Shown piece after piece: positions 8,052 through 57,392 of a stretch of 64,000 nt of DNA. Source of the DNA: FCB group bacterium (GTDB taxonomy: Bacteria > Fidelibacterota > Marinisomatia > Marinisomatales > J089); contig JAADFQ010000237.1 in the NCBI GenBank assembly GCA_013152835.1, positions 138 to 64,137 on the forward strand, in the 5' to 3' direction. Position 1 is the first letter of the stretch. The number at the start of each line of letters is the position of its first letter. A model generated the notes under the pieces. That model was not told where the DNA came from and did no database searches. It saw only the letters and a program-made list of their open reading frames with translations. A program made the translations under genes and the position numbers.

Positions 8052-8108
8052 CTAATAGGGGTGAATGTTTATTGAACTCAGATAGAATTGAATAGAAAGG
8101 ACAAAACA

Positions 8109-26610: not shown

Positions 26611-26852
26611 GGAATTAAGATAGAAACTAAAGCACTCTTTATTTAATCGCAACCCCACAGGTCACATGAAAATCAAATCAACACAAGGGCTGAAAGAAGG
26701 TAAGCGTCGAAGATCAAAAGGAAAAATTCATAAGTTATGATTTACTGTTTTACCCACTCGCTATTTTATCGGAACTTGTTTTAATTCGGTTTTCCACCTC
26801 CCCGTTGATGAATTGTTATGAACGGCGCTAAAAATGAAACCACCATTACGTC

Positions 26853-28499
26853 TTGAATAATGGCTCCCCAATCATGAGTGAGCTAAACGTGTTCAGGGAT
26901 CATCGATTTGTATTCAAAGGAATTGCATTGGCCCTGCTTACGTTTATCATCTATTTTCTGTTTCCCGTACCAGGTTTTCGTCGCTGGGACAGTCTTATGT
27001 CGGCTACTATTGTTCATGATTGGGATTCCATGCCCGGATCGGTAATATTTTTCTTTGCCCACACGCTTGTTCTTCCTATCAGTCGACTGATCAGTCTTCT
27101 CCTTCCGGATCTGGACCCGAATGTTGTCGTAAGTTTACGGGAAATTCTGTTTGCTTCCATGAATACCGTTCTCCTTTTTTGGGGATTAAATTGGGTTTTA
27201 GGAAATTCCCGCACGGCTTTCTGGCTGGCAGCAATAACAATCTTCTTTCATGGTCGATGGATGTTTGCCACTCATGGAGAAGAAAAGGAAATTCTCCTGT
27301 TTTTTCAGCAGATTTCTGTGCTTTATACCTTTCATTATTTGCATTGGACAAAATACGCCTCGCAAGTTTTTAATATCTCAACTCCATATATCGCGGAAAT
27401 TATTCTGGGTTTTCTATTGGCAATATCGGTCATGGCACATCTGGAGAATGGGATAATCGTAGTAACCATCGCTATTGTTCTGGGAATTTCCGCAGGAAAA
27501 AAGCAGATAGGCTGGGCACAATTCTGGTTGATCGGAGTCTCGGCTGTCTCCCTGGGTTTGATTTGGTTTGGGATTATTATTGTGAGCGTAAATGGAATTC
27601 GAACTCTTTCCGGTGCCTTGCAATGGTTATTTGAATATCACGTCACCGGGGAGTTTTTTACGATCACTCCGCACTTTTTTAATCAGATGGTAGAAGCCTG
27701 GACCGGGTTCCGACGCTTACTTATCGGGGAGACCGGAGAGGGTCCCTGGATGACCGTAGAAATGGTTGTGGGATTCGGAATGCTCGTTATTACTATCCGG
27801 AAAGCGTGGACTAGGAATAAACGGATTACCGCTTTTTTCCTAATTTTTCTGGGATTGATGACCGTACATTTTTTCTATTGGCTTCCATGGGATCCGGAAC
27901 AATGGGTACCGACCATTATGGCCGGAATGTTCTTAGTCAGCTTAGCGTGGTTTCATGAATACGATAAACCAAGATTACCGATTTTGATCATAATCCTGGT
28001 TGTCTTAATCGCAGCGAATGGTTATCGGTATATCCGCGATGGCGAATCGGTAAAACCATACCGGTCGTTCAGGATCAACGCAGGTCAGCATATTGGAAAA
28101 GTAAGCGATTGGGTTTTACGCAGTTCCCCCTATCCGAATTTGATAGCGGGATTACGACCATATTTACTACAAGATACAATTGTTTTAGTGGATCAACGGC
28201 ATTTGGCTAACCATTTGATAATCTATTCATCAGCCGTTCCTATAGTTACTGCTTATCTGGATAAAACCGACGATGTTTTACATAAAAAGTATCTGTTAAG
28301 CCAATTAAGTCTTGCCGTTTATCGTCCGGAGTTTTCTACGGTTGAACTGAAGGATAAAATAAGGTCGGGAGAATTGGTGTATTATTTAACGGAAGGACCA
28401 ATACCCGGATTGGTTACGGAGCTGAATGCCAGGGCAATACCATTTCCCGGAACGCGCTGTCTTGATTTTCAATTATGGCGGTTGGAGTCTTTGGAATAG
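26853..28499 (+). CDS. polytopic membrane protein (GT-C-like candidate, unassigned)
   Basis: More than 10 hydrophobic segments followed by a ~170-aa soluble C-terminus. TTG start at 26853 or ATG at 26874. Divergent from P1 and convergent with (31-nt overlap) the next gene. Confidence 0.55.
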   Translation: MNNGSPIMSELNVFRDHRFVFKGIALALLTFIIYFLFPVPGFRRWDSLMSATIVHDWDSMPGSVIFFFAHTLVLPISRLISLLLPDLDPNVVVSLREILFASMNTVLLFWGLNWVLGNSRTAFWLAAITIFFHGRWMFATHGEEKEILLFFQQISVLYTFHYLHWTKYASQVFNISTPYIAEIILGFLLAISVMAHLENGIIVVTIAIVLGISAGKKQIGWAQFWLIGVSAVSLGLIWFGIIIVSVNGIRTLSGALQWLFEYHVTGEFFTITPHFFNQMVEAWTGFRRLLIGETGEGPWMTVEMVVGFGMLVITIRKAWTRNKRITAFFLIFLGLMTVHFFYWLPWDPEQWVPTIMAGMFLVSLAWFHEYDKPRLPILIIILVVLIAANGYRYIRDGESVKPYRSFRINAGQHIGKVSDWVLRSSPYPNLIAGLRPYLLQDTIVLVDQRHLANHLIIYSSAVPIVTAYLDKTDDVLHKKYLLSQLSLAVYRPEFSTVELKDKIRSGELVYYLTEGPIPGLVTELNARAIPFPGTRCLDFQLWRLESLE

Positions 28500-30940
28500 A
28501 TTGACCAACCGAAGGAAACCACAAGACCGCCAAACCATACCCAAATCCAGACGGTACGGAATATATCCCGGATGATTTGGGGGAATCGGAGATGCAGCGA
28601 TTCAAGTTTTATCCATCTCCTGCGCATCCAATCCAAATCAATCAGTGTTCGGTCCAGTCCGAGTCGGCTCGAAAGTCGCCAATAATTTCCTGAAAGCAGT
28701 GTTTCCATGTGGGTATAGGAAAAAGGTGTGATCTGAGACCAATCAAGATTCGCTCTCCAATCCGGTTCAACATTTACACCGGAACGGCGATCTGCTCTGG
28801 TCAATAGTGAATCAATCAGATGAACATCCAGGGTTGAATCAAGGGATGCGTAAACAAATCCATGATTTCCATAGTTGTTTCCTGTATTTAAGACCATGGT
28901 TTGGGGATATTCACTGATAATACCGGCCAGAATTTTCATCGCTTGACTGTCGGGATAATCAGGATCGGCCGATCCCTGAGTGGATTCAGCGAATAGTCCT
29001 CCAGGTGCAAGACGCGATTTTAGTAAATTAAAGAAATCCTGATTGTGTAAGAGCATTGTTCCCAGCGTATAAGGTGCGGAAATATCCATCACAATCAAGT
29101 CGTATGTTTTATTGTCAGTGCGTATAAAATGCTTGGCATCATCGATGATGATTTGAGTATTTGTCCAGCGATTAAATTGATTCAAATCTCCCCAGCACTT
29201 TTTAGCAGATTGAACCACATCCGGATCAATTTCCACGAGTGTGGTGGCTTTGGCAAAAGGACCCACCCGTCCCACGGAATACATGGAACCGCACCCCAAT
29301 ATCAGGATATTCAGTTTCTTTTTTTTCTTACTATACTGGTATTGAGCAGGAAGTTCAGCCAGGAAATAGGTGAATTCGGACAAGCCGGTTTCTTGAATCC
29401 ATTCACCCTCCGAATTTGCCTGATATCCGAAATACAGGACACCATTAATGAAGGACCATCGGCCATCGGAGGGAAGACCGGGAAGGGAATGAGTATCCAG
29501 TATCTCAATCGTGTGGTACATGCTGTTCGCCTGATAACATAGCGAGGGGTTACTGTATCCACGCATTGCATAATAATCCTGAGTGACGGCCAGCTTTATC
29601 CCGGGTCCACGACTCAGAAGAAACACCAGAATTCCGATCGCGGCAATCAACTGAAATGTCCATAACTGATGAGGCGCCGATAGCATCCAGAGAATCAGGA
29701 AGAAAATGGCAAAATAAACCGGTTGAATCCACTGCGGGAACCAGAGCGTGAATAAAATCAGTAATCCTGTTCCTGCAACGGCACCGGCTAATTCTCGGGA
29801 ATAGGAGCGAACCAGTTTTAAGGAAGGCGATGTGAATTCGGTGAACCGGGGTAGAAAAAGAGAATAAAAACTTGAAGTAACAAAAGCCGAGAAAAACAGA
29901 ATTCCGATCAAAGCCCACCATCCGGCTCCGAGATAAATTGCCATCGAAGCAAAATATTTAAGAAATAAAAAAATATCCAGATGCAGGAAGAGAGTGACCC
30001 ATCCCAAAGGAAGAAAAAAACGGTTAGGGATTCGTGGTGCGGCCAGATAACCAACGGAATACCCAATAAAGTAGGCCGTGGCTACAATCAGAACGGATAA
30101 TTCTGAAGCAGCCAGTAAAGTTGAGAATTCCCGTGTGATAAAGAACTGAAGCAGAATCAGGTTTACGCCCGATAGGAAGAGAATATTTTTTTTCTTCTTA
30201 ACGGATATCCGGTTTTTGTCAATTGAAAAACCTGTCTTATGAAATGAAATAGCTTCGGATCGTGATAAGCAAAGGGTGACGACCAATACCGATAGTAATG
30301 CTGCCAGACCATAGAATTTAAAGGACAGCATCCCCAAAATTCCCAAAAGTAAAATTGGCAACCAAACCGGATAAGTAAAATAAACCAGCATAATCAAAGC
30401 GAGGGAAATAAAAGGCAGAATAAAGGGAGCACGAACCCCCCATTGTACAAAACCAAGGAGGCTGGTAACAAAACCCAGAATAAAACCATTATTTTCGTGG
30501 AAAAAAAGTTGTGCCGTGGATTGCGATTCAGCCCGGGTTCTGAATAATGCTCCGGCCGGAGCAGCCGTTGCCAGGATCAGAATTCCATAAATGGGTAAAA
30601 AAACGATGGTGGGAATAAATGTGACTAATCCCAGAGCGAGCAATCCGTAGGCAATTGTTGACAATAATAAACTGGTGCGGAATGATTTTGGTTTTGCAAA
30701 TCGGAGATTCAAAACGACACCCGCAATCCAAATTACCGAAATAAAAAAATAGCCCATATACGTGGCTGTATAATAACATTGGAATAAAAAATAACTGGAA
30801 ACCTGGAGCAATCCGAAATGAAAACCGGCCAAGACCGGTAATACTTTCTCTCTCGGATGAAGCAGGGGAAAAGAGATGGGTATTGAATCTCCTTCGGGCA
30901 TTGTTTTTCCCGAAGCGGTTATCTTATGGCCAACTGACAA
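28469..30940 (-). CDS. polytopic membrane domain fused to spermidine-synthase-like (PABS/class I MTase fold) domain
   Basis: The N-terminal ~480 aa are highly hydrophobic. The C-terminal part has LNILILGCGSMYSVGR...LVEIDPDVVQSAKK...YDLIVMDISAPYT...APGGLFAES, a PABS-like layout in which GGGDG is replaced by GCGSMY. Confidence 0.7.
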   Translation of the reverse strand: MSVGHKITASGKTMPEGDSIPISFPLLHPREKVLPVLAGFHFGLLQVSSYFLFQCYYTATYMGYFFISVIWIAGVVLNLRFAKPKSFRTSLLLSTIAYGLLALGLVTFIPTIVFLPIYGILILATAAPAGALFRTRAESQSTAQLFFHENNGFILGFVTSLLGFVQWGVRAPFILPFISLALIMLVYFTYPVWLPILLLGILGMLSFKFYGLAALLSVLVVTLCLSRSEAISFHKTGFSIDKNRISVKKKKNILFLSGVNLILLQFFITREFSTLLAASELSVLIVATAYFIGYSVGYLAAPRIPNRFFLPLGWVTLFLHLDIFLFLKYFASMAIYLGAGWWALIGILFFSAFVTSSFYSLFLPRFTEFTSPSLKLVRSYSRELAGAVAGTGLLILFTLWFPQWIQPVYFAIFFLILWMLSAPHQLWTFQLIAAIGILVFLLSRGPGIKLAVTQDYYAMRGYSNPSLCYQANSMYHTIEILDTHSLPGLPSDGRWSFINGVLYFGYQANSEGEWIQETGLSEFTYFLAELPAQYQYSKKKKKLNILILGCGSMYSVGRVGPFAKATTLVEIDPDVVQSAKKCWGDLNQFNRWTNTQIIIDDAKHFIRTDNKTYDLIVMDISAPYTLGTMLLHNQDFFNLLKSRLAPGGLFAESTQGSADPDYPDSQAMKILAGIISEYPQTMVLNTGNNYGNHGFVYASLDSTLDVHLIDSLLTRADRRSGVNVEPDWRANLDWSQITPFSYTHMETLLSGNYWRLSSRLGLDRTLIDLDWMRRRWIKLESLHLRFPQIIRDIFRTVWIWVWFGGLVVSFGWSIYSKDSNRHN

Positions 30941-31186: not shown

Positions 31187-32782
31187 TTAAGGCATGGTAA
31201 ATGATATTGTTTGATCCGATCCGCATTTGAAATGGAGCGTCAGCGTAAAATTTGCTCCGGTAACATCTGCTTTGGTGCTGCCGGTAGCGTTAAGATAGAA
31301 GTCCATCCGGTTCAACAGGATATATCCACCGCCGGAAATAAAGGCTGGGGGCTGCGTTTTACAAAAAGTGATATCCACGCCATTCACATTATCCACCAAC
31401 TGCCGTGATTGATTACCGCACCAGGATTGGTTGGCCTGCCAGTAAATCGTGGAAGCGTTAATAAAGGATATGATATTAAGATACGGACTTGGACTCACAT
31501 CACATTTAATTTGCATACCGGTAATAGTAGTGGCTGCACTCCCTGTATTATGGATTCGAAGGCGAACACGATATAGTTGTGGTTTGGTTAGATTCGAATA
31601 AGAAATTACTGCCGGTGAACAGGTCCCACTGGTTGAAAAACTCACCGTTTGGTTTGGTGTCAGACTGGAAAAGAAAGATATTCGGAAGGTAACGTCATTC
31701 ATGGGTTGAACGGTTCCGTTTCCGTCCACCTGGTCCTGGAAAGCAATGGGTCCGATAGTGGTATTGCCGGAGGGTAGTGAAAGGGTATTATCCAACACCA
31801 ACCGGGCTCCGGTAGAGGCCAGAGCACTTCGATTTATCGTATTCCATTTCCAGTAGTCGGTTCCGTTAACGGTAATATTGGCCATATAGGCGTAATCGCA
31901 CTCCCAACAAAGGGAATTGGACCAGCTCACACTGATCTGAGAAATATCCATGATAGTATTACCGGAATTGTTCACGGTAAACGTGAGCTCGGAATTATTT
32001 GTACCTCCGAGGGAAGCTGTTCCGGCCACATAAGTGAGTGTCCCAAAGGTAGGATTAACCGTGTATTCCAACCCTTCCGTCGGACTCGTCGTAGAATTAT
32101 TCGGTCCTACGCTGAGATGTCGTAAAGAAGTATCACCGGAAACAATAAACCGGAGCGTTGCAATGCCTATTGGTACGGAGGAAATATTATATCCCAGAGT
32201 TTTTGAGTAAGTCATTGTTTGCCAGGGGTCACCGCCGTATTGGATCTGAACGGTGGCATCGCTGTCACGGAGAGGATAACCATCGCCGTTTCGTACTCGC
32301 AAAGCGACAGTGTTATTTAATATTTCGGATTTATCATTGGCAATCTTTAACACAATAGGATCACCATCACCGGGACTGGTTAATGTTACCGGGCCGGAAG
32401 TCGGTACGGAATAAGTTATGGTTGTATTCCAGCCATCCCGAAAGAGAGCGGTAGGATCTTCTTTAATTCCCGTGTAATCACCATAAGGACCATCCCAGCC
32501 GGCAACTCCCGGGTCTGTAAGCAAATCGTTTAAACTGGTTGGAAATTGACCGGTGTCGCCTACATAACCATAATCAATACGTACACCGTTTTCCACGATT
32601 TTCGGATTTCCCACGATGGCGTATTTGATTTTGTTCATATTTGCAATGGTCAGATTAAAATTTCGGTTCGTGCTGATACGGGCCAGGGATCGGAATCCTA
32701 CAGCGCTGAGAATACCGATAATAACAATTACCATGACTAACTCAATGAGTGTGAAACCGAGATATGATTTAGATTGCTTCAC
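31187..32782 (-). CDS. giant modular GspG-like pseudopilin (P2)
   Basis: A GTG at 32782 gives the leader MKQSKSYLG|FTLIELVMVIVIIGILSA and removes the 37-nt overlap implied by ATG 32827. GspG-like GDTGQFPTSLNDLL...GWDGPYG...DGWNTTITY, followed by beta-modules. Confidence 0.8.
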   Translation of the reverse strand: MKQSKSYLGFTLIELVMVIVIIGILSAVGFRSLARISTNRNFNLTIANMNKIKYAIVGNPKIVENGVRIDYGYVGDTGQFPTSLNDLLTDPGVAGWDGPYGDYTGIKEDPTALFRDGWNTTITYSVPTSGPVTLTSPGDGDPIVLKIANDKSEILNNTVALRVRNGDGYPLRDSDATVQIQYGGDPWQTMTYSKTLGYNISSVPIGIATLRFIVSGDTSLRHLSVGPNNSTTSPTEGLEYTVNPTFGTLTYVAGTASLGGTNNSELTFTVNNSGNTIMDISQISVSWSNSLCWECDYAYMANITVNGTDYWKWNTINRSALASTGARLVLDNTLSLPSGNTTIGPIAFQDQVDGNGTVQPMNDVTFRISFFSSLTPNQTVSFSTSGTCSPAVISYSNLTKPQLYRVRLRIHNTGSAATTITGMQIKCDVSPSPYLNIISFINASTIYWQANQSWCGNQSRQLVDNVNGVDITFCKTQPPAFISGGGYILLNRMDFYLNATGSTKADVTGANFTLTLHFKCGSDQTISFTMP

Positions 32783-32790
32783 AGTATAGT

Positions 32791-34407
32791 TTAAAGCGTG
32801 AAAGCGATCGTTTGGGTATTTCCGCATTGAAGAATGAACTGGAGGGTATAGGATTGTCCAACTTTTACGGGAACATTGGTGGTTCCGCTCAGATTTTTCC
32901 GGATACGAATATCCACTGTTGCCGTTCCACCGGCATTGATTGTGGGTAAGGCATAGGTACAGATTGAAAAATCGGCAGTACCTACAGCGTTATTGGCAAT
33001 TGTTGGGCGGGCTACGCTGCTGCAAGCGGCTACATCAGCTCGCCAGACATTTGTGGCGTTGAATTGAATTCGTTCCAGATAAGCGGTAGAGGTCGTGATA
33101 TCAGAAGAAACGGTCATGGAAGTAACTGTGACCGGTAGGACTCCCGGATTCTGGATCGTTAGATGGAAGCGGGCGTTATTTACTCGTGAAGCGGCTACAC
33201 TCACTACCAAACTGGGAGCCGGGCAGGTTGTTGTATTATCAAAAGTTATCGTTTGGGAAGGGGCGGTCGAGGATTCGAATTTGATTGTAAACCGGGTAGC
33301 ATTCATATTGATCGTATTGGCTGTAGATCCGTCAGTCCCGTCCAGAAATATTAACGGTCCGATTGAATTTACTCCGGTATAGAGCGACATGCTGGCATCT
33401 AAAATCACTTGGGCACCGCTGGGTACCAGGGACGAACGTCCGTAGGTATTCCATTTCCAATAAGTCAATGTCTTTTTGACTTCGGAAAGGTAGGCGGATT
33501 GACAATTCCAGCAGTCATTGGGCAGTTTGTCCCAGGTAATGGTCATTTTACTAATCTTGAATGTAGGTGTCCCCGTATTCGTAACAGTAAACGAAACCTG
33601 ATTATTTCCTGCCCCGGAAACAGATGCTGAACCGGAAACATAGGTTAAATTACCATAATCGGGATAGACCGTCATTTTAATCGTTCCGCCGGTCGTACCA
33701 TTCGCTTCTTCCACCGATAGTGTTTTATAAACCGTATCGCCTGCGGAAATGGCCCTTAACTGTCTAAGTCCAATAGGAACGGTAGAAATTTTAAAACCGT
33801 TTGCTGAAGAGTAAGTCAGAGGAGTCCATGCATTGCTATAGTAGACGGCCACGGTTCCGTTCGTTCCGTTTATCTCAACACCGTTTTCCCGGTAAAGGCG
33901 GACTTTGACCGTATTGTTCAGGATGGCATTCAAACTTTCCGCGATTTTCACCGTGATTGTATCGCCATCGGCAGGAGTCCAGATTTTGGGAGTCTTGGTC
34001 CCGACGGTAGGTAGTACATACCGGTAGGATTGACCAAAGGCATCCCGTTTGAAAAAGTTGGGATCACCGGTATAACCGGCTTCCACATAAGGACCGGCCC
34101 ATCCTGGTTTACCGGAAGAGTTCTCGAGTAAATCATCCAGGGTGGGAGGCATGACACCTGTATCACCCACATAACCAAAACTGGTTCTCACATTATTCTG
34201 GATAATGTTGGGATCGCCAACGATGGATTTTTTTAAGTTCTGCATCTCCTCATACGTTTCATTAAATTTGGCATTGAGGGTGATGCGAGTGGTTGTTCTG
34301 ACGGCGACTCCGGCCAGAATTCCCATAATCACAATGACGATGATTAATTCAATGAGGGTGAATCCGCCCCTGGAATCGGTGATCGTCATGCTTGCGAATC
34401 TTGGCAT
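32791..34407 (-). CDS. giant modular GspG-like pseudopilin (P3)
   Basis: ...MTITDSRGG|FTLIELIIVIVIMGILAG (alternative start 34389). GDTGVMPPTLDDLL...GWAGPYV...DAFGQSYRY, followed by two ~120-aa modules. At least 10 N-x-S/T sequons. Confidence 0.8.
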   Translation of the reverse strand: MPRFASMTITDSRGGFTLIELIIVIVIMGILAGVAVRTTTRITLNAKFNETYEEMQNLKKSIVGDPNIIQNNVRTSFGYVGDTGVMPPTLDDLLENSSGKPGWAGPYVEAGYTGDPNFFKRDAFGQSYRYVLPTVGTKTPKIWTPADGDTITVKIAESLNAILNNTVKVRLYRENGVEINGTNGTVAVYYSNAWTPLTYSSANGFKISTVPIGLRQLRAISAGDTVYKTLSVEEANGTTGGTIKMTVYPDYGNLTYVSGSASVSGAGNNQVSFTVTNTGTPTFKISKMTITWDKLPNDCWNCQSAYLSEVKKTLTYWKWNTYGRSSLVPSGAQVILDASMSLYTGVNSIGPLIFLDGTDGSTANTINMNATRFTIKFESSTAPSQTITFDNTTTCPAPSLVVSVAASRVNNARFHLTIQNPGVLPVTVTSMTVSSDITTSTAYLERIQFNATNVWRADVAACSSVARPTIANNAVGTADFSICTYALPTINAGGTATVDIRIRKNLSGTTNVPVKVGQSYTLQFILQCGNTQTIAFTL

Positions 34408-34463
34408 ACAAAGGACCTGGCTGGGGGGATCTCAGCCAGGTTGGCCTATTGCTGATTCAAAGA

Positions 34464-37232
34464 TTAGTGACCATGATCATGGTGTCCGCCGCCACCGTGG
34501 TCGTTATGGTTATTTCCACCTGTACCCGGTGTTGTGAAGGTCAACGTATAATCACAGTTATCCCCCACACCAGTAAGTTCCACCGAGAAATCAACACCGC
34601 GCATATCCACGTAACTACCACCGGTAAGTGCATCCTTGAATTTGTAAAATACCAAGGTAACCCGGTCATTCACATCCAGGAAGATGTAATTATTCAAGTC
34701 AAGAACGCCGCCACTGGATAAGCGATCATCACTACCGGCATCCCAGTATGTTGCACTTCCTACCTTGAATTTGGATGCGTAGGCGTCGGATTCATTCCAG
34801 AAACCAGTGATCTGTTTGATCTGGATCGGACTGTCCCCTGTGTTTTTCACGTCAAATTCGACGGTGTAATGCCGTGAGCCGGACACGTCGACATTATTGT
34901 TGTAAATGCCTAATGAGGGACCCGAACGACTATCCGTATCAAATTCGAAGGGATATTGCGTACCGTCGGTAGCGATAAAGGTGACCTTAATGTGGTGACC
35001 GCGCATATCCAGTCGATCGCCGTTGCCATTCACATGATCCTGTTCAACGGAGCACTCAAAACTGTCTTCCTGGTTTGGTGTGCCGCACTCATCGCCGTGA
35101 GCCTTGTGAGCTTCCCAGGCATCAGTGATAATACAGAGAACCTGGGGATTTTCGGTGTCGCCATCCGGATAATGAGTAATTGTAATTTTACCGTCTCCAT
35201 CGCTGTCCGGACAATCCGGTGGAGAATAATGGGATCCGGAATTACCACCGCCATGATTCCCATGATCATTATGGCTTCCATGGCCGTTATGGTTTCCATG
35301 ACCGTGATCATTGTGGTTGTTGCATCCACTGCCCTGGTTTGTACAACTATATCGATGGATATATCCCGAACTTGAATTGGATTCATCATCTAAATAATAG
35401 CCATGACCGTTTTCGGTGATAACCGCATTGGTTGCCGTAATGCTGATCCACCATTGTCCCAGGGCCAGACCGCCGGAACGGTTATCATTGTAGAGATTGA
35501 CCGTCATGTTGTTAGAAGAAATATCATATTGCTTTCCATTATCCATTAAATATGATGATCCATTCACCGTGAGACCGTTCTGATTTCCATTCCCTTTTGG
35601 CTTTACATGAACCCAAACCGCCGAACCCTGATAATCGGATGCGGATTGTGTGAGGTCTTCGCGAGTGATGAGACTGCCGTCGGTCTTCACCAGATAAAAC
35701 TGGTGATTACTGTTATTATTAGGATTAAGGTTGATAGAACCACCGATCGTCGATGTGGTAGTGGGGTCAGAATAATGGTCTCCCCAATCCGATCCGCGGG
35801 AAGTCGTAAAGCCTTTCAGCTCTACGGTTTTCGTAGCATCGCAGATGGAGAATAAATCATCAAGGGCCAGGTATTGACCGGAAGCTACCCGGCAGTCTGT
35901 ATTTTTCCAGTAGGATGTACCGCCCAGTTTTATTTCTTCAAGATAAGGAATAGTGCAGGTTGTATCCCATTCAACGATCATTCCACTGATCGTGATACAG
36001 CAATCCCCGGGATTGGTGATATCAAAGGATATGTCCTGACGATCATGTCCGGATGTTTGCAGTGTTCCACTGGCATAGATTAATGATCCCACCGTCGGAG
36101 GCGTTCCCGGAGCGGTGAAGGAAATAAGTTGGGTAGGGGCAAGGTCAGAGTAGAGATAGAACTGGAAAGTTGTTCCATCCAATTGAATAGGGTCGGCCGC
36201 ACCGGTACGAGCATCGGCGTACTTGACTTCCGTTACATTGAGTGGCGTGCCGGGAGTAACCAATAAGGTGCTTCGCAGGACCAATTCCTGGCCGGACACT
36301 GCCCGTACGCCGTTATTATCGACCAGATAATCCCAGTATGTGCTACCGCCGACTTTAAAGGTTTCCAGATAAGGTGTTTGATTACACCAATTGGAGCCGG
36401 ACCATCCAAAGGATAAACTTTTAATGTTAAATTGACAATCTCCGGTTGCATCGGCCTGAAAAGAAACAATGTCATTCAGGGTTCCGCTGAGCGCGGCGGA
36501 ACTGGAATATTGAATGGTGCCATAATCACAGGTAATGGGCGCCGGGTCGCAAGGCGGGTCGGGACATGCCGGTGGATGAAGCGTGTCAGCCCCACCATTA
36601 GCAACAACAGTGACCTCCAGTCCGCAGGCCGGAAAACCATCGCCGTAGAAGCCGAGGGATGAACTATAGTCCAGTTTAATATCTCCACAACCGTAATTGA
36701 CATAAACATCGATAGATGATGAATCCAAAGGAAGACCGTTATCGTCGGTAAACTGATATTGAACGGAATTGTTGAGTGCATCGGTAATTTCGTTAGACAT
36801 ATCCAAGGTAATGGGGTCAGCACCATTTCCCCCTGCCGTTGAAGTTAACGTCAAATTCTGTGTATCCCAGATGTACGGGTTACCCCAGGGATCATAAAGA
36901 TAATCCAGGGGGTTATTTACAAACGTAACATCAAGGTAGGGTCCCAGCCAACTGCAATACTGATTCCCGCCGGGGTCTTGCAATAAGTCCTGAAGTGTAG
37001 TCGGAATTGAACCATTATCGCCGATAAAACCGCAATCACCCTCAGTACAGCCGACAATTCCACATCGGATTTGTTCCATTTCCGATAATGCCTCCGCTTC
37101 CCAACTGGACGGTGTCAGAACAACGATGACTTGTATGGCTGTCGCTGCCAGGATACCCAAAACAACGATTAAAGCGACCAGTTGAAACAGTGTAAAACCT
37201 TTAGTGTTCTTGGTTGTGCGAATTCTTTGCAT
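34464..37232 (-). CDS. 922-aa modular pseudopilin with Gln5 and His-rich tracts (P4)
   Basis: MQRIRTTKNTKG|FTLFQLVALIVVLGILAA, then a GspG-like region GDNGSIPTTLQDLL...WLGPYL...DPWGNPYIW. At least three of the shared modules. Internal tract CNNHNDHGHGNHNGHGSHNDHGNHGGGNSGSH and C-terminal tract GGNNHNDHGGGGHHDHGH. Confidence 0.8.
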   Translation of the reverse strand: MQRIRTTKNTKGFTLFQLVALIVVLGILAATAIQVIVVLTPSSWEAEALSEMEQIRCGIVGCTEGDCGFIGDNGSIPTTLQDLLQDPGGNQYCSWLGPYLDVTFVNNPLDYLYDPWGNPYIWDTQNLTLTSTAGGNGADPITLDMSNEITDALNNSVQYQFTDDNGLPLDSSSIDVYVNYGCGDIKLDYSSSLGFYGDGFPACGLEVTVVANGGADTLHPPACPDPPCDPAPITCDYGTIQYSSSAALSGTLNDIVSFQADATGDCQFNIKSLSFGWSGSNWCNQTPYLETFKVGGSTYWDYLVDNNGVRAVSGQELVLRSTLLVTPGTPLNVTEVKYADARTGAADPIQLDGTTFQFYLYSDLAPTQLISFTAPGTPPTVGSLIYASGTLQTSGHDRQDISFDITNPGDCCITISGMIVEWDTTCTIPYLEEIKLGGTSYWKNTDCRVASGQYLALDDLFSICDATKTVELKGFTTSRGSDWGDHYSDPTTTSTIGGSINLNPNNNSNHQFYLVKTDGSLITREDLTQSASDYQGSAVWVHVKPKGNGNQNGLTVNGSSYLMDNGKQYDISSNNMTVNLYNDNRSGGLALGQWWISITATNAVITENGHGYYLDDESNSSSGYIHRYSCTNQGSGCNNHNDHGHGNHNGHGSHNDHGNHGGGNSGSHYSPPDCPDSDGDGKITITHYPDGDTENPQVLCIITDAWEAHKAHGDECGTPNQEDSFECSVEQDHVNGNGDRLDMRGHHIKVTFIATDGTQYPFEFDTDSRSGPSLGIYNNNVDVSGSRHYTVEFDVKNTGDSPIQIKQITGFWNESDAYASKFKVGSATYWDAGSDDRLSSGGVLDLNNYIFLDVNDRVTLVFYKFKDALTGGSYVDMRGVDFSVELTGVGDNCDYTLTFTTPGTGGNNHNDHGGGGHHDHGH

Positions 37233-37244
37233 AGTCTAACCCCT

Positions 37245-37772
37245 TTATTTGAGATGAAGACTCAGATCATCACTGGTACTTTTGACACCGTCAGGTCCCC
37301 AACTTAACAGACTGGTATCTCCGGCAGTGGGACTGTATATCTCATAGGTATTGCCCCAGGCATCCGTCTTCCATTCATTGTCAGAGGCAAAATCTTTGGA
37401 GATATAAGGTCCGTTCCATCCGGTTTGTGTGAACCGATTCCAATTGGGATAAGAACCCTGAGTAACGAGATCGTCCATGGAAGACGGCAGATGGCCGATG
37501 TCGCCGTTAAACCCTTTATCGATCAGGACACCGCCGGCCACGGAGGAAGGATCACCCATCAGCGCTTTTTTGAGTTCTGTCATCTCTCCCTTGGTGGCTT
37601 TCAGGCGCGAAGTCTCAATAACGTTGGTGACTTTAGGTATGGCAATCGCCGATAAGATTCCTATTAATACAATGACCATGACCAACTCGATCAGGGTAAA
37701 CCCTTTTGTGAATGTTCTCATTTGTTCTTGATGACTCTTTTTATTCATCCTAATCCTAATCCGGTTATGCAT
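37245..37772 (-). CDS. GspG-like pseudopilin, normal size (P5)
   Basis: ...MRTFTKG|FTLIELVMVIVLIGILSAIAIPK (internal ATGs at 37748 and 37721 are likelier starts). GspG signature GWNGPYI...DAWGNTYEIY...SWGPDG. Confidence 0.85.
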   Translation of the reverse strand: MHNRIRIRMNKKSHQEQMRTFTKGFTLIELVMVIVLIGILSAIAIPKVTNVIETSRLKATKGEMTELKKALMGDPSSVAGGVLIDKGFNGDIGHLPSSMDDLVTQGSYPNWNRFTQTGWNGPYISKDFASDNEWKTDAWGNTYEIYSPTAGDTSLLSWGPDGVKSTSDDLSLHLK

Positions 37773-40312: not shown

Positions 40313-41314
40313 TTAGTAGATCAGCGATAAATAAACTACAACAGCCCCAATACCTAGAAGGCCCAGGAGAAAGCGCTTTTCCAAACTTAATATTTGTTCC
40401 GCCATGTCGTCGATTTCCGCACTGATGAACTGGGAATAATTCAGGATGGTGTTGTACTTGGTTTTCTCCTGTTCAAAGAGGATGATTTCCCGGGCCAGAG
40501 TATCCGGTAAAACAGTGAAATACTTTGGCAGTCGGTCCGGGTCCGGTTTTGATTTAATTAGATTCGCAAGTTTTTGAATGTCCTGAACAAGATAGGAATC
40601 TCCAAGGTAGTTTATTAAAAGACCATTGATTTGTGGAATTGGTACACCGGAACGTTGAAAAACGTTGTATAAAAAACAATAAGTGCTGATTTTGGAGAAA
40701 TGATGAATTTTTCCAGCCAGGGGAATCAGGTTTAATATTTTTTCTTTCCGCATCTCACTTGATATAATATAACGATAAACCCAACCCGCAAGCAGGATAA
40801 TGAAGGCGACCCCACTGGTAGTATATAGCATGTTTTCCAAGGAGAAGGTAAAGAGTTCTAAACGGACCAGTGTGTAGATTGCCCCGCCCAATAAAGCATA
40901 GATTATCATTCGAAGGTAAAACAAGGATACATTGTAATAATCAAACATTTTATTTTCATTTCTTAGATGTAACCGGATCGCTTCCAATCCAACGACCATT
41001 TTCCCACTGCGTTCAGTTGCCATAATCATTGCGATGTAAAAGTTAGGAAATACGTCTTTAAAGGTTAGCATAGCCTGGGAAAGAGGCGTCCCGGATTTTA
41101 CGGCGTTAGCAACGCTGAATAATACCATGCGCTGCACACGATTTCCGGTTGTTTCGAACACGGCGTCCAATGCATCCGGCAGCGTTTGTCCGGCCTGAAT
41201 CTGGGCCAGTAGTTTTTCCGTGAATAACAGGAGCTGTTTATAGGAAAAAGAGGAAGATCCGTATCCCAAATTAGAACTTAGATAGCGCTCAAATCGATTT
41301 AATTTCTCTGCCAA
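40313..41314 (-). CDS. divergent GspF/PilC-family platform protein (333 aa)
   Basis: T2SSF-like repeat QAGQTLPDALDAVFETTGN...VKSGTPLSQAM...MIMATERSGKM, followed by TM segments and a second degenerate repeat (IPLAGKIHHFSKISTYCFLYNVFQRSGVPIPQ). Confidence 0.65.
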   Translation of the reverse strand: MAEKLNRFERYLSSNLGYGSSSFSYKQLLLFTEKLLAQIQAGQTLPDALDAVFETTGNRVQRMVLFSVANAVKSGTPLSQAMLTFKDVFPNFYIAMIMATERSGKMVVGLEAIRLHLRNENKMFDYYNVSLFYLRMIIYALLGGAIYTLVRLELFTFSLENMLYTTSGVAFIILLAGWVYRYIISSEMRKEKILNLIPLAGKIHHFSKISTYCFLYNVFQRSGVPIPQINGLLINYLGDSYLVQDIQKLANLIKSKPDPDRLPKYFTVLPDTLAREIILFEQEKTKYNTILNYSQFISAEIDDMAEQILSLEKRFLLGLLGIGAVVVYLSLIY

Positions 41315-41326
41315 ATATTGTTTCTC

Positions 41327-43435
41327 CTATTCGTCGTCTGAATAGTTCACAGAATCTATCCATGAATCAATGGATGTGATCTCAGGATTTATTCTTTTTG
41401 CCAACTGTAAGCTTAAGAAAGCTGAGTCTTGGTTCCCAAGATAATAATAATTCCGGCCCATGAGATACCAGGCATACCCGTAGGTTGAGTCTGTTTTTAT
41501 CACTGATTTCAAATTTCCGAGGGATTGCTTGTACTGTCCTAATTGTTGGAGCGCATCGCCAAAAGCAACTTTTGCGGATAAATCTCTGGGATCCCACTTG
41601 ATAAATTTTTTAAACCATACCAATGATGATTCCGGTTCTTCAAATTGCAGCCAGGTTTCGGCGCGATTGATCCATAAATCCGGATTATTTGGATAGAGTT
41701 CCAGCGCCCGGTTAAAAAATCGGTTCATTTTCGGAACGGTAAGCCACATATCCCGCCAGCCGGGCATGGTGGTATCCAGGACCGTTAGTTTATCCAAAGA
41801 AAACCCTGATGACACCAACTGCAAAAGATGGCGTTTATAAAATTCTCCCCGTACCTGCCAGTAATTCCATGTTAGGGGGCCCAGTTCGGTACTTCTCTCA
41901 AATTCTTTCTCCGCTGAATTCAATAAAATCCATTTCTTCAAATGATCCTTTTCCCGAATTGCCTGGTTACTATATACTGATCCAAGATGCATATAATTTT
42001 CACCCCTCCGGGATTCCAAAACCGTAGCAATCTGATAATTTTTCAGGGCGGAATAATAATCTTCTGCATCAACGGCTCTATCCCCTTGCTGAGTAAAATA
42101 CTGAGCCAGAGGTTGAATAACACTGAATACGACCAGCGTTATTAAAACGATTATCTGAAAAAGCCGTTGCGTAGGGACTGCGATTACTTTTCCCGTAATA
42201 GGTATTTGTTGAATAGAAGCATTTGGATGATGGCGGAGAAAAATAGCGATAAATAAAAGAAAGAGGGTCAAAATACCCGGGATGTATAAATGATAATCCA
42301 CAAAAGTATGGATTAGCACAGCCAGTGCACCCACACCCATACCGGTAACCGGTGCGGATATTTTATCCAATTGTTTATGTAAACGGAACCAGGAGAAACC
42401 TTTCCCCGCCAGAAAAATCAGAAAAATAAGAAATAAACCCAGACCAATGATTCCCAGTTCCTCAAAATATTGAAGATAATCATTATGGGCAAAATCAAAG
42501 CGAATTCCAGGAGGTAGCCATTGTGTATTCGTGATATGAAATGTTCTGAAGCCGTATCCGATCCAGGGATGATCTTTGGCGAGATGAAAAGTCTGAGCCC
42601 AGATTCGTTGTCTGCCGAAGGTATCGGGATCGGTCAGGCTTCCCATCCGGGAAATAATTTGACTGCCGGGTATGGCGCTCAGCCCAACAATAACCAGAAT
42701 CATACTCAGGGCCACTCTTTTTAATTTTAGTGCGAATGTCTGAATTAATTGGTAGCGATGAAGAATGTATAGATTTAACACTACCGATGTTAAGAAAAAG
42801 GCCAGCCAACCAGCACGGGAATAGGTAGTACCCAGTACCCATTCACCAATAAATAATAGCAAAAACAAGATTCGTTCATACTTTCGTTTCGGGGAATAAA
42901 GATACTTCCAGAAAATCATAGGCCAGATCAGAATTATGTATCCGGCGAAGGTGTTTGGCCAGACAAAAAAACCATGGGAACGGGCGAAAAAACTACCCTG
43001 AATTGTATTTGCATTGATTTCAGTGAAAAATTGCCAGATTCCTATAAGCATTTCGATTCCGAACAATACAAGAATGAACTTGACGATGAAGGATTCATCC
43101 AGCCGATCTGGATAATTCACTGTTGCAAAAAAGAGAATAAAAGCTGCCAGATATGTTAACGATTTATAATCGGTAGCAAACGCGTCGATGGTCCAGATAT
43201 TTGAAAGTAATATCCAGAAAATGAATGCGGCAAAAATAATAATAAGGATATTGTTACGGATTGTGTACTCTTTATTTTTATTGCATAAATAATAATAAAT
43301 CCCCAATAATCCCGATGCGCTACATAGCAGAATGGTGTTATACAAAGGCGTTTCCGGACCGCGGTCAAAAGGAATGAAAAGAAAAACCAAACCCCAGAAA
43401 AGAAGGAAGAGATTGTTAATCATCCGTTTCCCCAA
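41327..43435 (-). CDS. O-antigen-ligase-like (Wzy_C) membrane protein with C-terminal TPR domain
   Basis: Polytopic, with SRAGWLAFFL and the ligase hallmark FAHNDYLQYFEELGIIG. The C-terminal ~250 aa are TPR-like (ALELYPNNPDLWINRAETWLQ..., AFGDALQQLGQYKQS..., AWYLMGRNYYYLGNQDSA...). Confidence 0.8.
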   Translation of the reverse strand: MGKRMINNLFLLFWGLVFLFIPFDRGPETPLYNTILLCSASGLLGIYYYLCNKNKEYTIRNNILIIIFAAFIFWILLSNIWTIDAFATDYKSLTYLAAFILFFATVNYPDRLDESFIVKFILVLFGIEMLIGIWQFFTEINANTIQGSFFARSHGFFVWPNTFAGYIILIWPMIFWKYLYSPKRKYERILFLLLFIGEWVLGTTYSRAGWLAFFLTSVVLNLYILHRYQLIQTFALKLKRVALSMILVIVGLSAIPGSQIISRMGSLTDPDTFGRQRIWAQTFHLAKDHPWIGYGFRTFHITNTQWLPPGIRFDFAHNDYLQYFEELGIIGLGLFLIFLIFLAGKGFSWFRLHKQLDKISAPVTGMGVGALAVLIHTFVDYHLYIPGILTLFLLFIAIFLRHHPNASIQQIPITGKVIAVPTQRLFQIIVLITLVVFSVIQPLAQYFTQQGDRAVDAEDYYSALKNYQIATVLESRRGENYMHLGSVYSNQAIREKDHLKKWILLNSAEKEFERSTELGPLTWNYWQVRGEFYKRHLLQLVSSGFSLDKLTVLDTTMPGWRDMWLTVPKMNRFFNRALELYPNNPDLWINRAETWLQFEEPESSLVWFKKFIKWDPRDLSAKVAFGDALQQLGQYKQSLGNLKSVIKTDSTYGYAWYLMGRNYYYLGNQDSAFLSLQLAKRINPEITSIDSWIDSVNYSDDE

Positions 43436-46275: not shown

Positions 46276-46686
46276 TTATGGAGCCGAAGTTGAGCGGGTA
46301 CCGATTGTTCCGGTACTGGACGAATAAGACCAATAATATTTACTCGCGTCGCTTCGCTGGTGATAAACATAATTATTTGTGGAGTTAAATCCCCATGTAT
46401 CATTTCCGGCCGGCGTGGGTGCGGTGGAGGTGTATCCTGTGGGTGTTTGATCCAAACCGTCAAAAGGATCGGTAGGATAAACCTGACCGTTTCCGGAGGC
46501 CATCTCATTAACACTATAGGTGTAAACACCGGATCGTAAGCCACCAATTACGCCATCTTCAGCCGATATATGGGCTTGATTTGTTAGATTTGCAAACTTA
46601 GGTATAGCGACAGCTGCCAGAATACCTAAGATGACAATTACCATGACCAATTCGATCAGGGTAAATCCTTCCTGGTTACGTTTCAT
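46276..46686 (-). CDS. type IV pilin / pseudopilin (136 aa), probable major subunit
   Basis: AGGAG precedes the ATG. MKRNQEG|FTLIELVMVIVILGILAAVAIPKF is a classical class III signal. The C-terminal part is Ser/Thr/Tyr-rich and has no Cys. Confidence 0.9.
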   Translation of the reverse strand: MKRNQEGFTLIELVMVIVILGILAAVAIPKFANLTNQAHISAEDGVIGGLRSGVYTYSVNEMASGNGQVYPTDPFDGLDQTPTGYTSTAPTPAGNDTWGFNSTNNYVYHQRSDASKYYWSYSSSTGTIGTRSTSAP

Positions 46687-56837: not shown

Positions 56838-57392
56838 CTAAATTTTTCCCCCGGGGTTAATAACATAAAAATAAGCGCTCATTTTGGCAATAACGGTCAC
56901 ATGGTCATCGCTGCGATTCAGAGATAAATTCGAGATGTAAATATGAAACGGTAACTGATACAAAGATTCGATGAACATACCAAAATTAAGATAACTACCA
57001 TTAATCTCAATTTCTATCGGTACTTTAACAAAATAATTTGGAGATTCCAACATGGCTTGAATGGCCGGTGATATTTTGTCAATAGTCAAATCTCTGGTGA
57101 GAGCAGCCTCAACAATGTCATTAACCATTGTGGAAACCTGATCTTTTGTGGGCAGCTTCATGGAAAGGGAATCAAATTCTTCCACCATTGAACTTACGGA
57201 TGCTTTGAGACTCGGGAGACTGTTGATGGATACATTGCTCCGGCTTAATTGTCCGTTCAATTGGCTGATTTCAGTCTGAATAGTATAGATTTTGTTTACC
57301 TGAGCCTGATACATGAAAAAATACCAGGCGACAATACTGGCGATTACAGCCAGAAAGCCAAGAGCCAGGATTTGACGCGCGTTAACCTTCAT
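56838..57392 (-). CDS. pilO: PilO/MshJ-like protein
   Basis: One TM segment (ILALGFLAVIASIVAWYFF), then coiled coil and a ferredoxin-like C-terminal part. Operon position supports the call. Confidence 0.6.
   Translation of the reverse strand: MKVNARQILALGFLAVIASIVAWYFFMYQAQVNKIYTIQTEISQLNGQLSRSNVSINSLPSLKASVSSMVEEFDSLSMKLPTKDQVSTMVNDIVEAALTRDLTIDKISPAIQAMLESPNYFVKVPIEIEINGSYLNFGMFIESLYQLPFHIYISNLSLNRSDDHVTVIAKMSAYFYVINPGGKI

What the first reader, a model, noticed from the sequence alone, without database searches (positions are those of the whole stretch)
34467..35324. Two His/Gly/Asn-rich tracts in the 922-aa pilin, one internal and one at the extreme C-terminus
aa 637-668 read CNNHNDHGHGNHNGHGSHNDHGNHGGGNSGSH (nt 35229-35324). 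The protein ends GGNNHNDHGGGGHHDHGH (nt 34467-34517). Both tracts start with the same NNHNDHG core, and each follows a module ending in a ...T/S-x-x-G-x-G linker, so they look like duplicated module tails. A DSDGDGKITITHYPDGD segment (Ca-binding-like DxDxDG) and a Cys-rich PACPDPPCDPAPITC segment are also present. A natural His-tag-like tract on a surface-exposed filament subunit suggests divalent metal, mineral or haem/cytochrome docking. That is intriguing given the multihaem cytochromes in the same window, but the functional link is speculation.
Basis: partly seen in the sequence, partly recalled or inferred. Interest (0 to 1): 0.65.

Follow-up and report, generated by a model that had tools for sequence, protein, structure and literature searches.

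The report
Asp/His-repeat linkers in giant tip pilin
Two floppy, histidine-rich stretches really exist in a 922-residue pilus protein of an uncultured marine bacterium; relatives keep their position and Asp-His make-up, which suggests metal binding, but nothing links them to the cytochromes in the window.

Summary
ORF 34464-37232(-) encodes 922 aa with His-rich tracts at aa 637-668 and aa 905-922. Nine His in 32 aa was reached in 4 of 100,000 shuffles.

The protein is not the bulk filament subunit. It is a modular, Glu5-less (Gln5) pilin-like protein in a conserved operon of Candidatus Neomarinimicrobiota, beside a complete type IV pilus machine. A 136-aa pilin next to PilC is the likely major subunit.

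In 12 orthologues and one distant homologue both tracts sit at the same domain boundaries. Length (4-55 aa) and His count (0-13) vary, and one orthologue has no His. What is kept is composition: G 30%, D 25%, H 19.5%, no K or R, one Y. 69 of 99 His follow Asp, spaced every 3-4 residues, and synonymous codons are scrambled. That argues for peptide-level constraint, not fresh slippage.

Tract 1 precedes an invariant DxDxDG loop and a 39-aa His3-Asp-Cys2 mini-module that is widespread and uncharacterised. In a sister clade tract 2 links to DUF7467.

Best reading (inferred, untested): disordered, multivalent, low-affinity metal-binding spacers on a tip adhesin. "Duplicated module tails" and cytochrome docking are not supported.

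The parts
34464..37232 (-). Gene for the 922-aa modular, Glu5-less pilin-like protein.
   Evidence: ORF list. There are 7 close homologues of 50-87% identity. Six further genomic copies lie in Neomarinimicrobiota MAGs.
37197..37232 (-). Leader peptide MQRIRTTKNTKG (aa 1-12), ending in the Gly of a class III (prepilin) signal.
   Evidence: Read directly from the sequence. G12-F13-T14-L15-F16-Q17 are invariant in 8 orthologues. A prepilin peptidase gene lies at 51155-51946.
36843..37196 (-). Pilin module (aa 13-130) of GspG-like type, with Gln at mature position 5 instead of Glu.
   Evidence: BLASTP to the adjacent 175-aa GspG-like pilin gives E=5e-16. NCBIfam TIGR01710 gives E=5.8e-5, below its cut-off. 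PDB phmmer hits pilin N-termini at E about 1e-3. Pfam N_methyl does not hit.
36528..36572 (-). Cys/Pro-rich segment PACPDPPCDPAPITC (aa 221-235).
   Evidence: It is conserved in most orthologues and replaced in P0006 and L011.
35808..36515 (-). Two beta-sandwich modules, A (aa 240-375) and B (aa 376-475), shared with the paralogues p538 and p546.
   Evidence: BLAST to the paralogues. AF2 pLDDT is 70-89 and the region is all-beta. Foldseek returns generic Ig-like or adhesin hits.
35403..35765 (-). A 115-aa beta domain (aa 490-610) that is widespread in PilX_N and GspK-like proteins. It has no Pfam family.
   Evidence: Hundreds of hits at 40-60% identity. P0024 carries PilX_N and P0008 carries T2SSK. 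In 19 of the 28 domain-bearing proteins whose sequences had been fetched the N-terminus is pilin-like or a hydrophobic helix. pLDDT is 61-77 in the sub-model.
35229..35324 (-). His tract 1 (aa 637-668), an H/G/N/D short-period repeat linker.
   Evidence: An 18-nt period repeated 2.6 times lies at 35260-35305. pLDDT is 22-28.
35190..35207 (-). DSDGDG (aa 676-681), a DxDxDG calcium-loop-like motif.
   Evidence: D676, D678, G679, D680 and G681 are invariant in 8 orthologues.
35082..35192 (-). One copy (aa 681-717) of a 39-aa module with consensus xKITICHxPPGNxxNPQTIxIPxxAWxxHxAHGDxxGxC.
   Evidence: Other proteins carry up to 19 copies. In alignment A2, H7, H29, H32, G33, D34 and G37 are invariant and C6 is in at least 90% of units; the closing Cys ends every unit taken from other proteins but is absent from the three units of this family. 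There is no Pfam family, no PDB relative and no literature match. The predicted topology is beta-beta-alpha at low confidence.
34521..34925 (-). Beta-sandwich module C (aa 770-904).
   Evidence: BLAST to the paralogues' modules. pLDDT is 63-84.
34467..34520 (-). His tract 2 (aa 905-922), the C-terminal tail.
   Evidence: pLDDT is 27-35. In P0003-6, L009 and L011 the equivalent tract links module C to a DUF7467 domain.
31187..37772 (-). Operon of four GspG-headed pilin-like genes (175, 922, 538 and 546 aa). The intergenic spacings are a 12-nt gap, a 56-nt gap and a 37-nt overlap.
   Evidence: The same gene order is found in L001, L007, L008, L009 and L010. No minus-strand terminator-like site lies between the genes.

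Best explanation
The two tracts are intrinsically disordered repeat linkers with short periods of 3-6 residues. They are built from His with Asp or Asn and Gly or Ser, in a core of the form (D/N)-H-G.

They sit at two fixed domain boundaries of a conserved, modular, Glu5-less pilin-like protein of Candidatus Neomarinimicrobiota. That protein is most likely processed by the prepilin peptidase and placed in low copy at or near the tip of a type IV pilus.

Selection acts on composition (imidazole plus carboxylate, no basic, aromatic or hydrophobic residues), not on sequence or length.

The most likely mechanism is multivalent, low-affinity chelation of divalent transition-metal ions of the Zn, Ni, Cu, Co or Fe(II) type by a flexible tether. 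Tract 1 lies just in front of a DxDxDG loop and a 39-aa His3-Asp(-Cys2) mini-module that is itself a candidate metal site. The tract could therefore collect or hand over metal to that site, as proposed for the His-rich loops of zinc-binding proteins. Alternatively it could let the pilus tip stick to metal-bearing surfaces.

Shown: the anatomy, the conservation pattern and the codon pattern.
Inferred: tip location, disorder, and all metal binding.
For: **Real and non-random.**

**Position kept.** Tract 1 lies between the invariant Cys630 and Tyr669-Ser-Pro. Tract 2 comes right after the invariant Thr-Pro-Gly. This holds in the orthologues at 48-87% identity.

**His kept.** His is present in 10 of 11 readable copies of tract 1 and 11 of 12 copies of tract 2.

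**Composition.** A census of 21 tracts (508 aa) gives G 30%, D 25%, H 19.5%, S 11%, N 7%, with K 0, R 0 and Y 1. 69 of 99 His are preceded by Asp. His-His spacing is 3 in 45 of 80 cases and 4 in 18 of 80.

**Codons.** Repeat units differ between clades (HGxHNx, DHx, DDHS, DHxG), yet all carry DH. Codons inside the repeats mix CAT/CAC, GAT/GAC and GGN. For example, the (DDHS)n run of L009 shows synonymous differences only. The peptide pattern is therefore older than the DNA repeats and is kept.

**Specificity.** The paralogues p538 and p546 contain 1 and 4 His in total. Other proteins that share the flanking domains use G/D or N/G linkers without His. In about 200 kb from these genomes, no real ORF outside this family has such a tract.

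**Distant homologue.** L012 (34% identity, also Gln5) again has a His/Gly repeat (GHGHGHGHG), this time next to the 39-aa module on its other side.

**Disorder.** pLDDT is 22-35 over both tracts in two models.

**Tip reading.** Gln5 is invariant. Tip complexes are capped by a subunit lacking Glu5 (PMC10191384). Modular pilins are expected at the tip (PMC8179133). The 115-aa domain is shared with PilX_N and GspK-like proteins.

**Precedent for the chemistry.** The unstructured His-rich loop of ZrgA binds 4-5 zinc ions, mostly at low affinity (PMC9820375).
Against: - No metal-binding measurement exists for this protein or any relative.
- Length varies from 4 to 55 aa and His count from 0 to 13.
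- The most divergent orthologue (P0007/L010) has no His in either tract yet keeps the rest of the protein and the operon, so His is dispensable in at least one lineage.
- His, Asp and Asn all use NAY codons one substitution apart. An 18-nt tandem repeat is visible in the window. Mutational processes therefore contribute to the composition.
- The correlation between the His counts of the two tracts (Spearman 0.81, n=10) is not corrected for phylogeny.
- The models are poor overall (mean pLDDT 52-53 from 8 sequences). Low confidence over the tracts is therefore weak evidence of disorder, and the neighbouring mini-module is also below 50.
- The precedent cuts both ways, because the His-rich loop of ZrgA is not essential in vivo.
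Confidence: 0.45

Rival explanations
1. The tracts are plain flexible spacers. Only length and flexibility matter. The His/Asp/Asn/Gly make-up is a by-product of slippage of GAY-CAY-GGN-type units and of drift among NAY codons.
For: Length and sequence vary strongly, and P0007 has none of the His. A tandem 18-nt repeat lies in tract 1. H, D and N codons differ by one base. The His-rich loop of ZrgA is dispensable in vivo.
Against: Synonymous positions inside the repeats are scrambled while the peptide repeat is intact. Tyr, the transition neighbour of His, occurs once in 508 residues and Lys and Arg never. His persists at both sites across three clades that use different repeat units. Linkers of related proteins lack His. 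A distant homologue gained a His/Gly tract at a different side of the same module.
Confidence: 0.33
2. The tracts act as a pH- or charge-responsive hinge. Asp/His tracts change net charge around pH 6-7 and so alter the reach or stiffness of the distal modules.
For: The composition is almost only Asp, His and Gly, with regular 3-4 residue spacing. The tracts lie at domain boundaries.
Against: There is no evidence on the habitat's pH range. The window's own tracts are Asn-rich and poor in Asp (2 Asp in each), which weakens a charge-switch role.
Confidence: 0.1
3. The tracts dock haem or multihaem cytochromes, tying the pilus to extracellular electron transfer.
For: Three multihaem c-type cytochrome genes lie in the window, with 12, 13 and 4 CxxCH motifs, and one has an MtrC/MtrF-like domain. 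His can ligate haem iron (general chemistry).
Against: The cytochrome genes lie at 898-8729 on the plus strand, at least 25.7 kb from the pilin gene. Unrelated genes lie between them: PAS sensor kinase, oligopeptidase F, ClpB and a response regulator. No ORF with 3 or more CxxCH lies within 10 kb of the gene in any of the related loci held at that point (L001-L010, seven distinct contigs). The Asp-His pattern resembles metal-ion loops more than known haem-binding motifs.
Confidence: 0.04

Closest known systems
Modular type IV (minor) pilins, e.g. Streptococcus sanguinis PilB, ETEC CofB, V. cholerae TcpB (PMC8179133)
   Same: There is an N-terminal pilin module followed by grafted beta-rich modules. 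The size and bulk imply tip display. PilB adhesion is metal-ion dependent through its MIDAS site.
   Different: The grafted modules here are not vWA or lectin domains. They are unnamed beta-sandwiches, a 115-aa PilX/GspK-associated domain and a 39-aa His3-Asp module. Asp/His repeat linkers are not described in the modular pilins covered by that paper, and a full-text search for 'histidine-rich' with 'pilin' found nothing relevant.
GspK / PilK(PilX)-type capping minor pilins, which lack Glu5 (PMC10191384)
   Same: Position 5 is not Glu (Gln is invariant). It is the largest of a set of four adjacent pilin-like genes. It shares a 115-aa domain with proteins that carry PilX_N or T2SSK signatures.
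   Different: It has no T2SSK or PilX_N signature of its own. Its pilin head is GspG-like and paralogous to its three neighbours. Tip location is inferred, not shown.
Unstructured His-rich loops of periplasmic zinc-binding proteins (ZnuA, AdcA, ZrgA, PA4063; PMC9820375, PMC8561739)
   Same: The tracts are rich in His plus acidic residues, disordered, variable in length between orthologues, and placed next to a candidate structured metal site.
   Different: The loops in those proteins lie inside solute-binding or ferredoxin-like folds of uptake systems. Here the tracts are inter-module linkers and a tail in a pilus protein, and metal binding is untested.
DxDxDG calcium loops of pilus tip proteins (PilY1/PilC family). 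This comparison rests on my own knowledge and was not retrieved here.
   Same: An invariant D-x-D-x-D-G lies in a pilus-associated protein.
   Different: There is no homology to PilY1 or PilC. The motif sits in front of the 39-aa module, not in a beta-propeller.

Membership tests
Type IV pilin / pseudopilin (class III signal peptide proteins) | Short positively charged leader ending in Gly, then Phe+1 and a hydrophobic alpha-1N segment of about 20 residues. | tested here: met
   The sequence reads MQRIRTTKNTKG|FTLFQLVALIVVLGILAATAIQVIVVL. It is invariant in orthologues and is predicted as a helix over aa 15-31.
Type IV pilin / pseudopilin (class III signal peptide proteins) | Glu at mature position 5. 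| tested here: not met
   Position 5 is Gln in all orthologues and in the distant L012. The three neighbouring paralogues have Glu. Lack of Glu5 is the known mark of the capping subunit (PMC10191384).
Type IV pilin / pseudopilin (class III signal peptide proteins) | Match to curated pilin models (Pfam N_methyl PF07963, T2SSG PF08334, TIGR01710). | tested here: inconclusive
   There is no Pfam hit. TIGR01710 scores 23 bits against a cut-off of 88.9. However, BLASTP to the adjacent bona fide GspG-like pilin gives E=5e-16 over aa 10-120.
Type IV pilin / pseudopilin (class III signal peptide proteins) | Prepilin peptidase and assembly machine encoded in the genome. | tested here: met
   Genes for Peptidase_A24, PilB, PilC, PilT (three copies), PilM, PilO and a secretin lie at 38-60 kb in the window.
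Modular pilins (Raynaud et al. 2021) | An N-terminal pilin module fused to one or more extra, non-pilin modules. | tested here: met
   Aa 1-130 form the pilin head. At least five further modules follow.
GspK / T2SSK family | T2SSK (PF03934) or PilX_N (PF14341) signature. | tested here: not met
   Neither is found in the 922-aa protein. Only the shared 115-aa domain links it to such proteins.
His-rich metal-binding loops (ZnuA/ZrgA type) | A disordered stretch enriched in His plus acidic residues, with variable length. | tested here: met
   The census is. pLDDT is below 35. Lengths range from 4 to 55 aa.
His-rich metal-binding loops (ZnuA/ZrgA type) | Measured binding of Zn(II) or other divalent metals. 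| not testable with these tools
   This needs ITC, ICP-MS or native MS on recombinant fragments.
DxDxDG calcium-binding loop | The D-x-D-x-D-G sequence. | tested here: met
   D676-S-D678-G-D680-G681 is invariant in 8 orthologues. Calcium binding itself cannot be tested here.
Cytochrome-associated or conductive pili | Genetic linkage or co-conservation with multihaem cytochromes. | tested here: not met
   The distance in the window is at least 25.7 kb on the opposite strand. None lies within 10 kb in the related loci L001-L010, seven distinct contigs. Genome-wide co-occurrence was not tested.

The most novel reading that the evidence does not exclude
The Asp-His repeat linkers, the DxDxDG loop and the 39-aa His3-Asp mini-module together form a metal-handling head on the tip of a Neomarinimicrobiota type IV pilus. 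Such a retractable device would capture trace metals or grip metal-bearing mineral particles. This would be a new function for type IV pili, and it would give the widespread, unnamed 39-aa module a role as a new extracellular metal-binding fold.
Probability: 0.15. Interest if true: 0.7.

Novelty: new variant of a known kind. Interest (0 to 1): 0.4.

Why it matters
If the tracts bind metal, this would be the first pilus subunit with built-in poly-His/Asp chelating tethers. It would point to metal-dependent attachment or trace-metal capture by an abundant, uncultured marine phylum.

Two by-products may be more useful. The 39-aa His3-Asp-Cys2 module and the 115-aa domain associated with PilX and GspK-like proteins are both widespread and have no family name or solved structure.

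If the tracts turn out to be plain spacers, the finding is a tidy example of composition-constrained low-complexity linkers and little more.

Tried and rejected
1. **Second homologue search.** I ran a word-index search with the mini-domain segment (aa 669-732). No candidate was found, so the search was wasted.
2. **Structure of the mini-module.** A profile of the 39-aa module against PDB sequences gave only chance hits at E=6.3. The motif string is not in the paper library.
3. **Fold searches.** Both models returned only generic Ig-like or adhesin beta-sandwiches with TM about 0.1-0.2. Neither gives a functional lead.
4. **AF2 models.** The full-length model and the model of aa 476-922, each built from 8 sequences, reached mean pLDDT 52-53. 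They are too weak to show the mini-module fold or the relative placement of domains.
5. **Habitat.** I searched the literature for the sample and assembly accessions to learn the habitat and found nothing.
6. **Promoter and terminator scan.** The scan of the operon gave counts at the chance level.
7. **'Duplicated module tails'.** Rejected, because the upstream modules are unrelated and the shared NNHNDHG differs at 4 of 7 codons.
8. **Cytochrome link.** Rejected as unsupported.
9. **Metagenome scan for more orthologues.** It added only two informative loci.
Full report
**1. The observation**

The minus-strand ORF 34464..37232 encodes 922 aa.

- Tract 1 (CNNHNDHGHGNHNGHGSHNDHGNHGGGNSGSH) is aa 637-668, nt 35229-35324.
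- Tract 2 (GGNNHNDHGGGGHHDHGH) is aa 905-922, nt 34467-34520. A TAA stop follows it.

Fifteen of the 29 His lie in the two tracts. Nine His in a 32-aa window was reached in only 4 of 100,000 shuffles of the protein. A weak 18-nt tandem repeat (2.6 copies, 35260-35305) underlies the hexapeptide rhythm HG-x-HN-x of tract 1.

**2. What the protein is**

It begins MQRIRTTKNTKG|FTLFQLVALIVVLGILAATAI. That is a class III (prepilin) signal, but with Gln instead of Glu at mature position 5.

- Pfam finds nothing in it. NCBIfam gives only a sub-threshold GspG match.
- Its first 120 residues are clearly paralogous to the adjacent 175-aa GspG-like pilin (E=5e-16). Its first 440-460 residues are paralogous to the two downstream pilin-like proteins of 538 and 546 aa (E=1e-44 to 1e-48). 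Those three all have the canonical GFTLIEL.
- The four genes are tightly packed. No terminator-like site on their strand lies between them.

Upstream on the same strand lie two PilT-family ATPases, a half-size PilC-like protein and a Wzy_C/TPR protein. Further along are PilC, a sigma-54 activator, PilB, the prepilin peptidase, a third PilT, a secretin, PilO and a PilM fusion.

A 136-aa pilin (46276-46686) next to PilC is the likely major subunit. The 922-aa protein is therefore not the bulk filament subunit.

Tip complexes of type 4 filaments are capped by a subunit lacking Glu5 (PMC10191384). Bulky modular pilins are expected at the tip (PMC8179133). I infer that this is a low-copy, tip-type modular pilin. 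This is not shown.

**3. Anatomy**

An exhaustive HMMER search found 811 related proteins. Only one cluster at 50% identity matches along the whole length. All the others match single modules. The order of parts is:

1. Pilin head, aa 1-130.
2. A beta region with the Cys/Pro segment.
3. Beta-sandwich modules A and B, aa 240-475, pLDDT 70-89.
4. A 115-aa beta domain, aa 490-610. It recurs at 40-60% identity in hundreds of proteins. Many carry PilX_N, T2SSK-like or pseudopilin-like N-termini.
5. Tract 1.
6. An invariant CPDxDGDG.
7. One copy of a 39-aa module, xKITICHxPPGNxxNPQTIxIPxxAWxxHxAHGDxxGxC. Other proteins carry up to 19 tandem copies.
8. A Cys-rich stretch.
9. Beta-sandwich module C, aa 770-904.
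10. Tract 2.

In the 39-aa module three His, the Gly-Asp after the third His and one further Gly are invariant, and the first Cys is nearly invariant. The closing Cys ends every copy taken from other proteins, but the copies in this pilin family end at the Gly before it. The module has no Pfam family, no PDB relative and no literature trace. A low-confidence model gives it a beta-beta-alpha topology.

Both models leave the two tracts unstructured, at pLDDT 22-35. Fold searches return only generic Ig-like adhesin folds.

**4. Do relatives keep the tracts?**

Seven proteins and six further genomic copies were found. Every named record is Candidatus Neomarinimicrobiota. The operon order is the same in all contigs long enough to show it.

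Both tracts sit at fixed boundaries. Tract 1 lies between the invariant Cys630 and Tyr669-Ser-Pro. Tract 2 comes directly after the invariant Thr-Pro-Gly.

Length and sequence are not conserved.

- Tract 1 (measured from Cys630 to Tyr669) spans 18-55 aa with 0-13 His.
- Tract 2 spans 4-48 aa with 0-9 His.
- One orthologue (P0007/L010) has no His at either site.
- In the 50%-identity clade (P0003-6, L009, L011) tract 2 is not a tail. It is a linker to an extra C-terminal DUF7467 domain.

Composition is conserved. Over 21 tracts (508 aa) it is G 30%, D 25%, H 19.5%, S 11% and N 7%. There is no Lys or Arg and a single Tyr. 69 of 99 His follow Asp. His recurs every 3 residues (45 of 80 intervals) or every 4 (18 of 80).

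Different clades use different units: HGxHNx in the window, DHx in L001 and L008, DDHS in L009, and DHxG in L007. Inside these repeats the synonymous positions are mixed, with CAT/CAC, GAT/GAC and all four GGN codons. The (DDHS)n run of L009 differs between units only synonymously. The peptide pattern is therefore maintained, not freshly generated by slippage.

The trait is specific to this protein.

- The paralogues have 1 and 4 His in total.
- Proteins sharing the flanking domains use Gly/Asp or Asn/Gly linkers.
- No real ORF outside this family in about 200 kb from these genomes has such a tract.
- A distant Gln5 homologue (L012, 34% identity) carries a GHGHGHGHG tract on the other side of the same 39-aa module.

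The His counts of the two tracts rise and fall together across genomes (Spearman 0.81, n=10). This is not corrected for shared ancestry.

**5.

- 'Duplicated module tails' is not supported. The upstream modules belong to different families. The shared NNHNDHG differs at 4 of 7 codons. What the two tracts share is a repeat style, H-[NSD]-D-H-G in the window's clade.
- The DxDxDG motif is real and invariant. It is better conserved than the tracts themselves.
- The cytochrome idea finds no support. The three multihaem genes (898-2559, 2569-3864, 8088-8729) are on the other strand and at least 25.7 kb away. A PAS sensor kinase, oligopeptidase F, ClpB and other genes lie between. No multihaem ORF lies within 10 kb of the gene in the related loci L001-L010, seven distinct contigs. 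Longer-range or genome-wide co-occurrence could not be tested.

**6. Mechanism**

Best-supported reading, at confidence about 0.45: the tracts are flexible, multivalent, low-affinity chelators of divalent metal ions, set as tethers between modules of a tip adhesin. Tract 1 is placed to feed or cooperate with the adjacent DxDxDG loop and the His3-Asp mini-module.

The chemistry has a direct precedent in the unstructured His-rich loops of zinc-binding proteins. The loop of ZrgA binds 4-5 Zn, mostly at low affinity. That loop is dispensable in vivo, which is a warning (PMC9820375).

The main rival, at about 0.33, is a plain spacer whose composition reflects slippage and drift among NAY codons. 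The variability and the His-free orthologue favour it. The codon scrambling, the near-absence of Tyr, Lys and Arg, the specificity to this protein and the independent tract in L012 count against it.

A pH-responsive hinge (about 0.1) and haem or cytochrome docking (about 0.04) remain possible but have no specific support.

**7. Novelty and verdict**

Modular minor pilins and His-rich metal loops are both known. Their combination is not described in the literature I could search. Nor is this Neomarinimicrobiota operon of four GspG-headed giant pilins.

I rate the finding a new variant of a known kind, with moderate interest (0.4). The function is untested. The two unnamed, widespread modules flanking tract 1 may be the more valuable leads.

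Noticed in passing
window 35082-35192 (aa 681-717); also P0021, P0026, P0028, P0034, P0036, P0052, P0087, P0109, P0126: This is a 39-aa module, xKITICHxPPGNxxNPQTIxIPxxAWxxHxAHGDxxGxC. Three His, the Gly-Asp after the third His and one further Gly are invariant, the first Cys is nearly so, and a closing Cys ends every copy found outside this pilin family. Large secreted proteins carry up to 19 tandem copies. It has no Pfam family, no PDB relative and no literature trace, so it is a candidate new extracellular metal-binding or disulfide mini-domain.
   Followed up: partly
window 35403-35765 (aa 490-610): This 115-aa beta domain (INxNPNNS...FYL...DGSxITRDDL...VHVKPKGNGNQN...YNDN...WWI) is found at 40-60% identity in hundreds of proteins. 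Many of them have PilX_N, T2SSK-like or pseudopilin-like N-termini. It has no Pfam family.
   Followed up: partly
window 898-3864 and 8088-8729 (+): Three multihaem c-type cytochromes carry 12, 13 and 4 CxxCH motifs, and the second has an MtrC/MtrF-like domain. They are followed by a 358-aa ORF with no Pfam hit and by a HAMP histidine kinase plus sigma-54 response regulator pair. This could be an extracellular electron-transfer module in a Neomarinimicrobiota genome.
   Followed up: partly
window 40313-43435 (-): A half-length PilC-like protein (333 aa, a single T2SSF domain) lies next to a 702-aa Wzy_C (O-antigen ligase-like) plus TPR protein. The arrangement is conserved upstream of the pilin operon in all orthologous contigs. 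It may be a pilin O-glycosylation enzyme of the TfpO/PglL type.
   Followed up: no
window 28469-30940 (-): An 823-aa protein with a spermidine-synthase-like domain is conserved at the downstream end of the pilin operon in L001, L007, L008 and L009. Its role there is unexplained.
   Followed up: no
P0003-P0006, L009, L011 (C-termini): Sister-clade orthologues carry an extra C-terminal DUF7467 domain (PF24269, E=5.5e-11) after the Asp/His linker and a CC/C-DGQV motif. The window's clade and P0007 lack it.
   Followed up: partly
L012 3522-5825: This distant Gln5 homologue (34% identity) has a different module order. A GHGHGHGHG tract follows the 39-aa module, and the protein ends in a (GK)n-HG tail.
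   Followed up: no
window 34521-34925 (module C); P0007 aa 774-851: Module C shows a weak resemblance to archaeal flagellin or archaeal type IV pilin globular domains. Pfam Arch_flagellin hits P0007 at E=4e-4, below its cut-off. Foldseek hits the Pyrobaculum pilus chain 8fk7_A at TM 0.45.
   Followed up: no
window 24994-26658 (-): A fifth large pilin-like gene (554 aa, GFTLIEL, weak T2SSG match) lies about 5 kb beyond the operon. It is 44-48% identical to pilin-like ORFs in the orthologous loci.
   Followed up: no
window 57382-60405 (-): The PilM homologue is a 1007-aa fusion. The PilM_2 domain covers aa 459-812, and about 450 N-terminal residues are unassigned.
   Followed up: no
L008 about 11650-11750: A run of masked bases (N) in this public contig falls across part of the 115-aa domain, tract 1 and most of the 39-aa module. 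Tract 1 therefore could not be read in this orthologue.
   Followed up: yes
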